From Escherichia coli (lineage in GTDB: Bacteria > Pseudomonadota > Gammaproteobacteria > Enterobacterales > Enterobacteriaceae): a DNA stretch of 64,000 bases. Positions 55,601-58,600 of this stretch are shown in pieces. A program made the position numbers. The stretch is from NCBI RefSeq assembly GCF_050320075.1, contig NZ_CP190018.1; one strand, given 5' to 3'. How positions within the stretch are numbered: position 1 is the first letter of the stretch; each line of letters opens with the position of its first letter.

Positions 55601-58600
55601 CAGGACAGTTCGTGCTGGATCCGTGTGGCACAGGCGTGGGCAGGCACCGGTTTTGGCCACCTGGCGATACCGCGTGTGGGTCAGGAGGTGATTGTAGACT
55701 TCCTCAACGGCGATCCGGACCAGCCGATCATTATGGGGCGCACCTACCACCAGGAAAACCGCACCCCCGGCAGCCTGCCGGGAACAAAGACGCAGATGAC
55801 CATCCGCTCCAAAACGTACATGGGCAGCGGATTTAATGAGCTGAAGTTTGATGATGCGACAGGGAGAGAACAGGTCTACATCCACGCGCAGAAGAACATG
55901 GATACCGAAGTGCTCAACGACCGTACCACCACCGTAAAACACGATCACCACGAAACCGTAAAAAATGACCAGACGGTCACGATCCAGGAAGGTAACCGCC
56001 TTCTTACGGTGGAAAAAGGCCACAAGATCACCGGAGTACTGAAAGGGTCTTTATCTGAGGATGTCTTTCAGGACAGAGGCACGATTGCCGGTTCGGTGCA
56101 TGTTGACGCTGTAAACAATGGTGGCGAAGGCGACGGTATACAGGCTTATACGGCGATTAAGGAAATTTTGCTGGCCGTGGAGGAAAGCAAAATTGCGCTG
56201 ACGCCGGATGGCATTCAGCTACAGGTCGGGGAATCGACGGTAATCAGGCTGTCGAAGGATGGCATCACCATCGTGGGCGGTTCTGTTTTCATCAACTGAT
56301 TCACTCAGATTATCAGGGAGTATTTTATGCAGTTCACTTTTAATGAAGGCCACATTCAACTGCCGTCTCAATGGCAGGATCAGTCAATGCAGGTCCTGGT
56401 GTCCACAGATAACAGTGGCATCAACCTGGTCATTACCCGCGAAGCCGTTCCACAGGGAACCCTGACACCAGAGCTGTACCAGGAAACGCTGGCGCTGTAC
56501 CAGGGCAAACTTGATGGGTACACCGAACATGCCTGCCGGGAAATCACTCTGGCAGAGGCCCCGGCCTGGCTGCTGGATTATTCCTGGAACGGTCCGGAAG
56601 ATGAGGGGAATCAGGGGCGGATTAGCCAGATAGCCGTATTCCAGCGGCGTGGAGATACGCTGCTGACCTTCACTTTCAGCACCTCCTTATCCCTGAAGAA
56701 CAGTCAAAAGACGATGCTGCTGGAGGTGATAAAGAGCTTCACCCCGTTGCCACCGGAGAATGACATCCAAAAGGACCAGCCGCGCTGACATAAACGAGGG
56801 ATAACACATGAGTGAAGGACCAGGCGGGCCACAGGGAGCGACCGCAGGCGGTACGCTGGCAATGCGAATGCTGTCACAGCAGGCGATGGTCGCCAGCCAG
56901 ATGAAACGGGCAGCCAACGACAAAGCCATTGCACAGATGCTGGCATCAAAAAAGTCCGGCCCCCCCGCCGCCAGGCTGGGCGATGAAATTCAGCACAAGA
57001 GTTTTTTGGGGGCGCTGGCAGGGGCCGTGCTGGGGGCGATAGTGACCATCGCAGAAGGTTGCCTGATTATGGCCGCCTGTGCCACCGGCCCTTATGCGCT
57101 GGTTCTGGTGCCTGCGCTGATGTATGCCAGCTATAAGGCGAGTGATTATGTGGAGGAGAAACAGAACCAGCTTGAATCATGGATAAACAGCTTTTGTGAC
57201 ACGGACGGCGCCATCAATACCGGTTCTGAAAATGTAAACATTAACGGAAAGCCCGCTGCCAGGGCCGCCGTCACCCTTCCCCCTCCTCCCCCACCTGGAG
57301 CAATACCTGAAATCCCACAGGGGGAACCCTCATGGGGTGATATTGCCACTGACCTGCTTGAATCGGCAGCGGAAAAAGCAGTACCACTGGCGAAGGCCTG
57401 GGGGAACGCTGTTATCACCCTGACGGACAGCAATGCCGGTTTTATGGATCGCGTCAGCGCCGGCGCATCGCTTCTGTTTCCCGCCGGTCCGGTATTAATG
57501 GAGTTTGCCACCATGGTGGGCGGGCGTGGCGAAATCAAAAAAGATGTGGATTTCCCGGAAGCCGGTGAGGACACGGCGCTCTGCGACAAGGAGAACAAAC
57601 CACCGAGGATAGCCCAGGGCAGCAGCAACGTCTTTATCAACAATCAGCCCGCCGCGCGCAAGGGCGACAAACTGGAGTGCAGCGCGGCAATCGTGGAAGG
57701 TTCGCCGGACGTCTTTATTGGCGGTGAACAGGTGACCTATCTGGATATCCAGCCAGAGTTCCCGCCGTGGCAGAGAATGATCCTGGGGGGAATAACGATA
57801 GCCAGCTATCTTCTGCCGCCAGCGGGACTGCTGGGAAAACTGAAGAATCTGGCGAGACTCGGCAAACTGGGGAACCTGCTGGGGAAAAGCGGGAAGCTGC
57901 TGGGGGCAAAGCTCGGCGCGTTGCTGGGAAAAACAGGTAAGTCGTTAAAAAGTATTGCCAATAAAGTCATCAGATGGGTAACAGATCCTGTCGATCCGGT
58001 AACCGGCGCGTACTGCGACGAACGTACCGACTTTACGCTGGGCCAGACCCTCCCCCTCTCCTTCACCCGTTTCCACAGTTCTGTACTGCCGCTGCATGGC
58101 CTGACCGGCGTGGGCTGGAGCGACTCCTGGAGCGAATACGCCTGGGTGCGTGAACAGGGAAACCGGGTGGATATCATCAGCCAGGGAGCCACGCTGAACT
58201 TCGCCTTCGACGGTGACAGTGATACGGCGGTTAACCCGTATCACGCCCAGTACATTCTGCGCCGCCGCGATGATTATCTGGAGCTGTTCGACAGGGATGC
58301 ACTGAGCAGCCGCTTCTTTTATGACGCCTTTCCGGGAATGCGTCTGCGCCACCCGGTGACTGACGATACCAGCGATGACCGCCTGGCACACAGCCCCAAT
58401 GACCGGATGTACATGCTGGGCGGGATGAGCGACACCGCCAGCAACCGCATCACGTTTGAGCGCGACAGCCAGTACCGGATCACAGGTGTCAGTCACACCG
58501 ACGGGATCCGGCTTAAACTGACGTACCACGCCAGCGGCTACCTGAAAGCCATTCACCGCACGGATAACGGCATACAGACGCTGGCGACCTACGAACAGGA

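What the first reader, a model, noticed from the sequence alone, without database searches (positions are those of the whole stretch)
57780..57960. Lys/Gly/Leu-rich periodic linker after the second hydrophobic helix of the Rhs N-terminus
Following the PAAR region and a hydrophobic segment (ILGGITIASYLLPPAGLLG), the protein has KLKNLARLGKLGNLLGKSGKLLGAKLGALLGKTGKSLK, a periodic LGK/LLG repeat. The DNA shows matching short repeats (ctggg...aa...). It could be an amphipathic membrane-interacting element or a flexible tether between the prePAAR module and the Rhs cage. Repeat tracts like this are also slippage-prone.
Basis: seen in the sequence. Interest (0 to 1): 0.25.

Follow-up and report, generated by a model that had tools for sequence, protein, structure and literature searches.

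The report
Basic linker after PAAR in Rhs toxin
The Lys/Gly/Leu-rich stretch is real, but it is the E. coli version of an already described region (the "postPAAR" linker) that joins the spike-tip PAAR domain of a type VI secretion Rhs toxin to its protein cage, so it is an ordinary feature and not a slippage-prone repeat.

Summary
Residues 344-382 (nt 57837-57953) of a 1610-aa E. coli T6SS Rhs effector read KLKNLARLGKLGNLLGKSGKLLGAKLGALLGKTGKSLKS. Twenty-nine of 39 residues are L, K or G, there are no acidic residues, and L and G recur every 3.6-3.7 residues.

The gene follows vgrG and an Eag (DUF1795/DcrB) chaperone gene. The protein has a prePAAR motif, TMD1, a split PAAR domain and an Rhs cage. 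The tract lies between PAAR and the conserved N-terminal autocleavage motif (D393-P394|V395). It aligns to the "postPAAR" region of Photorhabdus Rhs1 (7PQ5), a shown second EagR-binding site that is unresolved by cryo-EM. It also aligns to the PAAR-to-cage linker, seal peptide and anchor helix of P. protegens RhsA (7Q97).

Relatives keep a basic (+7 to +17), Gly-rich tail of 47-86 aa but not its sequence. AlphaFold gives pLDDT below 50 for the tract, as coil in one model and broken helices in the other.

In 59 sampled E. coli genomes the length never changes. Tandem Repeats Finder finds nothing, and changes in the tract core are mostly synonymous.

Most likely it is a flexible, conditionally helical amphipathic tether that Eag shields before firing. 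A membrane role is possible but untested. Interest is low.

The parts
54398..56299 (+). vgrG (T6SS spike protein, 633 aa)
   Evidence: Pfam Phage_GPD E=3.7e-74, Gp5_trimer_C and Phage_base_V. RefSeq homologues are annotated as type VI secretion system tip protein VgrG.
56327..56788 (+). eag chaperone gene (DUF1795/DcrB family, 153 aa)
   Evidence: Pfam PF08786 DcrB E=1.4e-27. Matches EagT6 (6XRF_A, 1TU1) at E=1e-5.
56808..61640 (+). rhs effector gene, 1610 aa: prePAAR, TMD1, split PAAR, postPAAR, Rhs cage, C-terminal toxin
   Evidence: Pfam RHS_repeat E=1e-73, PAAR_motif E=5e-16 and DUF6531. Best PDB match is 7PQ5_L (Tre23/Rhs1) at E=1.9e-52. The cage was modelled with pLDDT mostly above 90.
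56967..56996 (+). prePAAR motif AARLGDEIQH (aa 54-63)
   Evidence: Matches the AARxxDxxxH motif. Pfam prePAAR_I scores 23.2 bits, just under the 25-bit cut-off. Aligns to the Photorhabdus Rhs1 and Tse6 N-termini.
57003..57188 (+). TMD1: two long hydrophobic helices (aa 66-127)
   Evidence: 19-residue windows with mean Kyte-Doolittle hydropathy above 1.4 start at aa 63-89. AlphaFold predicts helices 66-92 and 94-127 with pLDDT 67-89.
57573..57737 (+). C-terminal half of the PAAR domain (aa 256-310). The N-terminal half is around aa 131-155 and an insertion of about 100 aa separates them.
   Evidence: Pfam PAAR_motif covers aa 267-310. pLDDT is 87-96. The split shows in the alignment to 7PQ5_L as two stretches.
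57765..57812 (+). Conserved postPAAR hydrophobic helix PWQRMILGGITIASYL (aa 320-335), followed by a PP turn
   Evidence: AlphaFold helix 320-335 with pLDDT 63-90. The E(F/I/V)PxW...hydrophobic...PP pattern is conserved across the family. [quoted passage not shown]
57785..57790 (+). G6 homopolymer inside the hydrophobic-helix codons. This is the only site near the tract where slippage-type variation was seen.
   Evidence: Other alleles read GGGAGG. Two independent assemblies carry G7, which splits the gene into a 377-aa PAAR ORF and a downstream Rhs ORF.
57837..57953 (+). The Lys/Gly/Leu-rich tract itself (aa 344-382)
   Evidence: pLDDT is below 50 in both models. The length is invariant in sampled E. 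coli genomes.
57945..57983 (+). Predicted amphipathic 'anchor' helix LKSIANKVIRWVT (aa 380-392), overlapping the end of the tract
   Evidence: The 15 residues aa 378-392 have a helical moment of 0.70. AlphaFold predicts helix 380-392 but with pLDDT about 44, and no helix in the cage-context model. By position it is equivalent to the RhsA anchor helix 289-302, which precedes the cleavage at P305 (PMC8765631).
57927..57983 (+). 19-codon allelic cassette (aa 374-392) with two very different forms in E. coli
   Evidence: In L001, 32 of 57 nt differ and 15 of 19 codons are non-synonymous, while the flanks differ almost only synonymously.
57984..57992 (+). Predicted N-terminal autocleavage site D393-P394|V395 (motif TDPVDPVTG)
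   Evidence: HMMER aligns DPVD with D288-P289-I290-D291 of Photorhabdus Rhs1. There, cleavage after Pro-289 and loss of cleavage in D288N were shown (PMC8636562). Confident AlphaFold structure begins at about aa 389.

Best explanation
The tract is the C-terminal two-thirds of the 'postPAAR' region of a class I prePAAR Rhs effector of the E. coli type VI secretion system. It is a basic, Gly-rich, conditionally helical amphipathic linker.

Proposed sequence of events:
1. Before firing, the tract and the hydrophobic helix in front of it (aa 320-335) are held by a second dimer of the Eag chaperone encoded just upstream. This step is inferred from the homologue.
2. The tract tethers the PAAR tip, which sits on VgrG, to the Rhs cage.
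3. Its last ~13 residues form an amphipathic helix next to the N-terminal autocleavage site D393-P394|V395. After self-cleavage the tract therefore belongs to the PAAR fragment, which stays attached to the cage non-covalently. This step is also inferred from homologues.

What is shown here: position, homology, composition, periodicity, low structural confidence, purifying selection and fixed length in E. coli. What is inferred: Eag binding, cleavage and the anchor role.
For: - Gene context is vgrG, eag, rhs.
- The N-terminus matches Photorhabdus Rhs1 (7PQ5_L) at E=1.9e-52. The tract falls in the stretch between PAAR and D288-P289|I290 of that protein.
- That stretch is the postPAAR domain. It is co-precipitated by EagR on its own, cross-links to EagR, and is unresolved in the cryo-EM map (PMC8636562).
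- P. protegens RhsA (7Q97) aligns its seal peptide and anchor helix to the tract and to aa ~378-391.
- Fourteen relatives, plus a second E. coli allele, carry a tail of 47-86 aa with net charge +7 to +17, 12-22% Gly and few acidic residues. Most have a strongly amphipathic final 15 residues, although the sequence itself is not conserved.
- AlphaFold gives the cage pLDDT above 90 but aa 300-388 below 50. In the N-terminal model, helix 320-335 is fairly confident, and helices 338-353, 365-375 and 380-392 are predicted at pLDDT 43-48.
- L and G recur with the alpha-helical period.
- Within E. coli the tract core shows 3-5 synonymous against 2 non-synonymous codon changes, and no indels.
Against: - Eag binding, autocleavage and the anchor helix are transferred from homologues with about 40% or lower identity in this region. 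None was tested on this protein.
- The alignment inside the tract is low-complexity and of low confidence.
- The two AlphaFold models disagree (coil versus broken helices). In the cage-context model no anchor helix formed.
- Small non-Rhs PAAR effectors carry the same kind of basic tail. The tail therefore cannot serve only as a cage tether or anchor.
- The E. coli Eag matches EagT6 only weakly (E=1e-5), and SciW is not among the PDB chains matched at E<=0.001.
Confidence: 0.6

Rival explanations
1. Membrane-active translocation element. [quoted passage not shown] Together with TMD1 it helps open a path for the toxin. Functionally it would stand in for the second TMD of class II prePAAR effectors, or act like the glycine zipper of Tde1. 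This reading is compatible with the best explanation and does not exclude it.
For: - Net charge is +12 with no acidic residue over aa 340-392.
- The tract has helical periodicity and a significant hydrophobic moment.
- It occupies the same position as TMD2 of Tse6-like class II effectors, which align to aa ~286-388.
- The same basic tail occurs in small PAAR effectors that have no cage.
- Positive charge is conserved while the sequence drifts.
- There is a precedent. The Tde1 N-terminal GxxxG repeats bind the adaptor before secretion and are needed for membrane permeabilisation and translocation afterwards (PMC10240207).
Against: - GxxxG spacing is not enriched beyond what the Gly content gives (p=0.11 for pairs, 0.076 for triples).
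- With a Lys every 3-4 residues the tract cannot span a bilayer as a classical TM helix. Only windows starting at aa 324-325 pass a hydrophobicity threshold.
- There is no experimental evidence for any postPAAR region acting on membranes. Ahmad et al. class Rhs effectors as having one TMD region (PMC7773334).
Confidence: 0.25
2. Passive entropic spacer. The tract is an intrinsically disordered linker whose only requirement is length and solubility, with no specific partner.
For: - pLDDT is below 50 in both models.
- Sequence and length vary between genera, with tails of 47-86 aa.
- The region is unresolved in the cryo-EM maps of homologues (PMC8636562, PMC8765631).
Against: - The tract core is almost invariant at the protein level across E. 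coli alleles that differ at synonymous sites.
- The helical periodicity of L and G is not expected for a passive spacer, nor is the conserved strong positive charge with near absence of acidic residues.
- The isolated postPAAR region of the Photorhabdus homologue binds EagR (PMC8636562).
Confidence: 0.15
3. Slippage-prone repeat (contingency locus). The repeated CTG-GGN-AAA codons would let the tract expand, contract or frameshift, so varying or switching the effector.
For: - The CTGGG(R)(R)(M)A motif is clustered, with 4 of 9 matches in the window falling within 100 nt.
- There are degenerate 20-21-nt direct repeats.
Against: - No tandem array is found at the most permissive TRF setting, and the copies are only 67-80% identical.
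- All 59 sampled E. coli genomes, out of 2176 with a match and spanning 84.5-100% identity, align without any gap across 57720-58020.
- The only slippage-type variant found is a G6-to-G7 change upstream of the tract.
Confidence: 0.02

Closest known systems
postPAAR domain of Photorhabdus laumondii Rhs1/Tre23 (PDB 7PQ5; Jurenas et al. 2021, PMC8636562)
   Same: [quoted passage not shown]
- It has the same leading hydrophobic helix ending in PP (EFxxWQRxIL...LxPP), followed by G.LKGLGKL-like residues.
- The tail is basic and Gly-rich (net +14 there, +11 here), with an amphipathic end before G/T-D-P|(I/V)-D.
- An eag gene lies directly upstream in both.
   Different: - The sequence after the first ~15 residues is not alignable with confidence.
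- The E. coli tail is shorter (56 against 69 aa after the PP), much richer in Leu, and has a heptad-like LGK rhythm.
- EagR binding and cleavage were shown only for the Photorhabdus protein.
PAAR-to-cage linker, seal peptide (268-275) and anchor helix (289-302) of Pseudomonas protegens RhsA (PDB 7Q97; Gunther et al. 2022, PMC8765631)
   Same: - It is likewise a linker that is mostly unmodelled.
- An amphipathic helix ends 2-3 residues before the cleavage-site proline. HMMER aligns the seal peptide to aa ~354-362 and the anchor helix to aa ~378-391.
   Different: - The RhsA-type segment is hydrophobic and Gly/Ala-rich (mean hydropathy about 0.9, 4-6 basic residues) and is cleaved at an H/N-P motif. 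The E. coli type is basic (12 K+R) and is cleaved at D-P.
- AlphaFold did not place an anchor helix with confidence here.
Second transmembrane region (TMD2) of class II prePAAR effectors such as Tse6 (Ahmad et al. 2020, PMC7773334; Quentin et al. 2018 as cited there)
   Same: - The position directly after PAAR is the same. It begins with the same E(I/V)PxW motif and hydrophobic helix, and class II proteins align to aa ~286-388.
- In Tse6 this region needs its own Eag dimer.
   Different: - TMD2 is truly hydrophobic and long enough to span a membrane. The E. coli tract has a Lys every 3-4 residues.
- Class II effectors lack the Rhs cage and the autocleavage site.
N-terminal glycine-zipper repeats of the Agrobacterium T6SS effector Tde1 (PMC10240207)
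   Same: - Both have consecutive GxxxG motifs in an N-terminal delivery region of a T6SS effector.
- In Tde1 this region binds the adaptor before secretion and permeabilises the target membrane afterwards. This is a functional analogy only.
   Different: - There is no sequence homology, and the adaptor family differs (DUF4123 against DUF1795/Eag).
- The GxxxG spacing here is not significant beyond composition.
- No membrane activity was tested here.

Membership tests
Class I prePAAR Rhs effector (Ahmad et al. 2020) | prePAAR motif AARxxDxxxH near the N-terminus | tested here: met
   AARLGDEIQH at aa 54-63. Pfam prePAAR_I scores 23.2 bits, just under the 25-bit cut-off.
Class I prePAAR Rhs effector (Ahmad et al. 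2020) | A region of transmembrane helices between prePAAR and PAAR | tested here: met
   Hydropathy windows at aa 63-89. AlphaFold helices 66-92 and 94-127.
Class I prePAAR Rhs effector (Ahmad et al. 2020) | [quoted passage not shown] | tested here: met
   Pfam PAAR_motif E=5e-16 and RHS_repeat E=1e-73. The cage was modelled with pLDDT above 90.
Class I prePAAR Rhs effector (Ahmad et al. 2020) | Cognate Eag (DUF1795) chaperone gene and vgrG nearby | tested here: met
   DcrB/DUF1795 ORF at 56327-56788 and vgrG at 54398-56299, directly upstream.
postPAAR domain (Jurenas et al. 2021) | [quoted passage not shown] | tested here: met
   Alignment to 7PQ5_L. Helix 320-335 has pLDDT 63-90. The motif is conserved in relatives.
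postPAAR domain (Jurenas et al. 2021) | Binds the Eag chaperone independently of TMD1 | not testable with these tools
   This was shown only for Photorhabdus Rhs1, by pull-down and cross-linking (PMC8636562). A fused Eag-postPAAR AlphaFold run was designed but not submitted.
postPAAR domain (Jurenas et al. 2021) | Ends at an Asp-Pro autocleavage site | tested here: inconclusive
   The sequence motif T-D393-P394|V-D-P-V-T-G aligns with D288-P289|I290. Cleavage itself cannot be tested here.
RhsA-type seal peptide and anchor helix (Gunther et al. 2022) | Amphipathic helix just upstream of the cleavage-site proline, packed inside the cage | tested here: inconclusive
   The helical moment is 0.70 for aa 378-392. 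Helix 380-392 is predicted at pLDDT about 44 without the cage. With the cage present no helix formed and pLDDT stayed below 50 up to aa 388.
Transmembrane region 2 of class II prePAAR effectors | Hydrophobic segment long enough to span a membrane after PAAR | tested here: not met
   Only the 19-residue windows starting at aa 324-325 exceed mean hydropathy 1.4, and a PP pair breaks that segment. The tract itself has 9 Lys and 1 Arg in 39 residues.
Glycine-zipper membrane motif (GxxxGxxxG) | Consecutive GxxxG spacing beyond chance, in a membrane-embedded helix | tested here: not met
   G362/366/370/374 form the pattern, but shuffles reach it with p=0.11 for pairs and 0.076 for triples. The helix is too charged to be membrane-embedded in the classical sense.
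Slippage-prone coding repeat (contingency locus) | Tandem or near-exact repeat units and length polymorphism among strains | tested here: not met
   TRF finds none. The repeats are 67-80% identical. There are no indels in 59 sampled genomes.

The most novel reading that the evidence does not exclude
In the Asp-Pro-cleaved clade of PAAR effectors (E. coli, Photorhabdus and relatives, including small effectors without a cage), the second transmembrane region of the ancestral prePAAR module has been replaced by a polycationic amphipathic helix. A second Eag dimer masks it before firing. After firing it acts as a built-in membrane-permeabilising peptide, resembling an antimicrobial peptide, that helps the toxin cross the target inner membrane.
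Probability: 0.2. Interest if true: 0.45.

Novelty: new member of a known kind. Interest (0 to 1): 0.15.

Why it matters
How Rhs toxins leave the T6SS spike and cross the target inner membrane is still unsettled, with several competing models (10.1101/2025.10.28.685041; PMC8765631).

The postPAAR linker is the only covalent or non-covalent link between the spike tip and the cage, yet it is invisible in every structure solved so far. This Rhs N-terminus occurs in about 40% of complete E. coli genomes (2219 of 5426), including O157:H7 and ETEC H10407. The E. coli version is compositionally extreme, which makes it a convenient peptide for testing three questions: whether the region binds Eag, whether it binds membranes, or whether it only provides length.

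As a genome-scan finding, however, it adds little. The region, its chaperone and its cleavage site are already described in homologues.

Tried and rejected
1. Tandem-repeat and slippage reading. Rejected on the evidence of TRF, the repeat identities and the absence of indels among E. coli genomes.
2. Pfam scan of the isolated 81-aa segment at E up to 10. This gave only two weak, sub-threshold matches, RBD_LARS1 and a KH domain. NCBIfam added only the PAAR domain.
3. The search for homologous proteins with aa 255-470. It returned almost only truncated or frameshifted fragments, so the exhaustive representative search was used for the family survey instead.
4. A first MAFFT run on badly delimited regions produced an unusable 1694-column alignment. 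It was replaced by motif-anchored extraction.
5. Glycine-zipper enrichment. The pattern is present but not significant once the Gly content is fixed.
6. A single-chain fusion Eag-Eag-TMD1-Eag-Eag-postPAAR for AlphaFold. The construct was built but not run, for three reasons: the available Eag relatives were too similar to one another, only pLDDT and secondary structure would be returned, and the literature reports that AlphaFold3 fails on EagT6-TMD2 (PMC12881460).
7. The two AlphaFold models disagree on secondary structure in the tract. I therefore treat neither as a structure.
8. I could not find the Enterobacter cloacae RhsA/EagRA paper in the library, so it is not used.
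Full report
**What is there.** The finding lies inside a 1610-aa ORF on the + strand (56808-61640). An Eag-type chaperone gene lies upstream (56327-56788, Pfam DcrB/DUF1795 E=1.4e-27), and a vgrG gene lies before that (54398-56299).

The large protein carries RHS repeats (E=1e-73), a PAAR motif (aa 267-310), DUF6531 (aa 393-455) and a near-threshold prePAAR_I match. The motif AARLGDEIQH (aa 54-63) is the prePAAR signature.

The DNA is Escherichia coli. The first 1293 nt of the gene are found in 2219 of 5426 complete E. coli genomes at 90-100% identity, including O157:H7 and ETEC H10407, each time fused to different C-terminal toxins. This is therefore a standard vgrG-eag-rhs T6SS effector locus.

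**Checking the observation.** The quoted peptides are present. ILGGITIASYLLPPAGLLG is aa 325-343, and KLKNLARLGKLGNLLGKSGKLLGAKLGALLGKTGKSLKS is aa 344-382, nt 57837-57953.

- Composition: 12 L, 9 K and 8 G make up 29 of 39 residues, against 22% in the whole protein. The corrected p is about 1e-8. No window elsewhere in the protein exceeds 14 such residues, and the lowest-entropy window of the protein starts at aa 340. Over aa 340-392 there are 12 basic and no acidic residues.
- Periodicity: identity autocorrelation is above shuffles at lags 3, 7 and 15 (p 0.02, 0.008, 0.004). L and G each peak at a period of 3.6-3.7 residues. The helical hydrophobic moment at 100 degrees is reached by only 108 of 5000 shuffles. 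On a helical wheel this gives a Leu face, an adjacent Gly face and a Lys side.
- DNA: four of the nine CTGGGRRMA matches in the 64-kb window lie in 57831-57932. However, the repeat copies are only 67-80% identical, and Tandem Repeats Finder reports nothing even at minimum score 30. The DNA echo is simply the Leu-Gly-Lys codons.

**What region of the protein this is.** The best solved relative is full-length Photorhabdus laumondii Rhs1/Tre23 (7PQ5_L, E=1.9e-52). Next is P. protegens RhsA (7Q97, E=3e-9).

In the Rhs1 alignment the tract falls between the end of PAAR and the residues D288-P289-I290-D291. These align with D393-P394-V395-D396 here.

Jurenas et al. [quoted passage not shown] They show the following:
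- The isolated postPAAR region is co-precipitated by EagR.
- It cross-links to the concave face of EagR.
- Rhs1 has two EagR sites, TMD1 and postPAAR.
- The protein cleaves itself after Pro-289, and D288N abolishes this.
- Density before D288 is unresolved.

For RhsA, Gunther et al. (PMC8765631) describe the PAAR-to-cage linker as unmodelled except for two elements: a "seal peptide" (268-275) and an amphipathic "anchor helix" (289-302), located just before the cleavage at P305. HMMER places the seal opposite aa ~354-362 and the anchor helix opposite aa ~378-391 here, although the alignment in this low-complexity stretch is weak.

**Family survey.** An exhaustive search of 1.84 billion representatives with aa 255-470 gave 1121 hits. 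I extracted the segment from the conserved E(F/I/V)PxW motif to the cleavage-site proline. This segment is 42-140 aa long, mostly 67-100, and comes in two flavours.

- The H/N-P-cleaved flavour, which includes RhsA-like proteins, is hydrophobic and Gly/Ala-rich (mean hydropathy about 0.9, 4-6 basic residues).
- The D-P-cleaved flavour includes E. coli and Photorhabdus Rhs1. It shares EFxxWQRxIL...LxPP followed by G.L.KL.GKL-like residues, and then a basic tail. Across fourteen relatives plus a second E. coli allele, the tail after the PP (NP in two proteins) is 47-86 aa long, has net charge +7 to +17, is 12-22% Gly and has few acidic residues. In most of them the last 15 residues are strongly amphipathic. 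The sequence is otherwise not conserved.

Two further points matter for function. Small PAAR effectors of about 315-395 aa with no Rhs cage (P0073, P0078, P0085, P0086) carry the same hydrophobic helix plus basic tail. Tse6-like class II effectors have their true second transmembrane region at the same position. The postPAAR region therefore looks like the positional counterpart of class II TMD2, and its basic tail is not tied to having a cage.

**Variation inside E. coli.** A blastn search with 57720-58020 matched 2176 genomes. Of 60 rows sampled evenly down the ranking (100% to 84.5% identity), 58 cover all 301 nt and one covers nt 14-301. Each of these 59 is a single ungapped piece, so none has an indel.

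Translations of four divergent alleles show aa 300-373 invariant except K346G and R350K. Against those alleles the tract core (aa 344-373) has 3-5 synonymous and 2 non-synonymous codon differences. The preceding 44 codons have 7 synonymous and 0 non-synonymous. That is the pattern of purifying selection, not of a free spacer or a slippery repeat.

**Structure prediction.**
- Model 1 (aa 300-1480, 38-sequence alignment): mean pLDDT 83.9 and the cage mostly above 90. Residues 300-388 are all below 50, and the tract is drawn as coil. Confident structure starts at about R389, five residues before the cleavage site.
- Model 2 (aa 1-440): PAAR is confident (87-96) and the TMD1 helices 66-92 and 94-127 score 67-89. 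The postPAAR helix 320-335 scores 63-90. The tract appears as three helices, 338-353, 365-375 and 380-392, but at pLDDT 43-48.

The two models disagree on secondary structure, so neither should be read as a structure. Together they indicate a flexible or conditionally folded region with some helical tendency. This agrees with the missing density in both homologue structures.

**Most likely mechanism.** I conclude with high confidence that the tract is the E. coli form of the postPAAR linker. By inference from Rhs1 and RhsA, the following steps are proposed:
1. The hydrophobic helix 320-335, and probably the first amphipathic part of the tract, are shielded by a second Eag dimer before secretion.
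2. The tract spans the gap between the PAAR tip and the cage.
3. Residues ~380-392 form the amphipathic helix that holds the N-terminal fragment to the cage after cleavage at P394|V395.

After processing, the tract therefore belongs to the PAAR fragment and is not a covalent bridge. None of these three steps was tested on this protein.

A second reading is compatible with the first and also untested. Once Eag is lost, the polycationic amphipathic helix may bind the anionic inner membrane of the target and assist TMD1. This would be analogous to class II TMD2, or to the glycine-zipper N-terminus of Tde1, which binds its adaptor before secretion and is needed for membrane permeabilisation and translocation afterwards (PMC10240207). 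The conserved charge and the presence of the tail in cage-less effectors favour this reading. Against it, the GxxxG spacing (G362/366/370/374) is not significant beyond composition (p 0.08-0.11), and the tract is too charged to be a classical TM helix.

A purely passive spacer is disfavoured by the sequence conservation within E. coli, the periodicity and the EagR binding of the homologue. A contingency repeat is essentially excluded.

**Comparison with the known, and verdict.** The protein meets every testable criterion for a class I prePAAR Rhs effector. The tract meets the positional and sequence criteria of the postPAAR domain. It fails the criteria for a second transmembrane domain, for a significant glycine zipper and for a slippage-prone repeat.

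What is specific to E. coli is the extreme L/K/G composition and the heptad-like rhythm. No paper in the searchable library describes this. The term postPAAR occurs in one relevant paper only.

This is a new member of a known kind and of low general interest. Its main use is as a convenient peptide for testing what postPAAR linkers do.

Noticed in passing
window 57927-57983 (Rhs aa 374-392): A 19-codon cassette just before the autocleavage site exists in two very different allelic forms in E. coli: GKTGKSLKSIANKVIRWVT and SRTKNALKNTYNVLKKFIK. In strain CFSAN029787, 32 of 57 nt differ and 15 of 19 codons are non-synonymous, while the flanks on both sides differ almost only synonymously. About 188 of 2176 genomes fall in the 80-90% identity band that this form produces. 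Both forms stay amphipathic. This looks like a short recombination patch in the predicted anchor helix.
   Followed up: partly
window 57785-57790; loci L005:2453-2690 and L006:1890-2127: The window allele has a G6 run (CTGGGGGGA) where other alleles read CTGGGAGGA. Two independent assemblies (GCA_020379225.1 and Logan SRR3457656) carry G7. This frameshifts the gene into a 377-aa 'PAAR domain-containing protein' that reads the tract in another frame, followed by an overlapping downstream Rhs ORF. It could be real phase variation producing a split Rhs, or a homopolymer sequencing error.
   Followed up: partly
window 57273-57572 (Rhs aa ~156-255): The PAAR domain is split by an insertion of about 100 aa. 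It starts with a PPPPPP run and is predicted as helices 176-206, 212-223 and 229-237 at pLDDT 42-74. Photorhabdus Rhs1 lacks this insertion, as the alignment jumps from aa 155 to 254. Its role is unknown.
   Followed up: no
window 61663-62373 and 62455-63996: A 236-aa ORF directly after rhs has no Pfam match and is presumably the immunity gene. The closest RefSeq copy of the rhs gene is annotated as a zincin-like metallopeptidase toxin. A further 513-aa ORF follows and may be an orphan rhs fragment. Neither was examined.
   Followed up: no
representative proteins P0073, P0078, P0085, P0086: Small PAAR effectors of about 315-395 aa without Rhs repeats carry the same EFxxFQRALL...PP helix and basic Gly-rich tail as the E. 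coli and Photorhabdus Rhs proteins. This suggests that the postPAAR module moves between cage-containing and cage-less effectors.
   Followed up: partly
E. coli O103:H2 CEC12044, locus L003: In some genomes the same rhs gene is cut short by an ISEc1 (ISAs1-like) insertion about 1.9 kb into the gene and is annotated as a partial PAAR domain protein. The tract itself is intact there.
   Followed up: no
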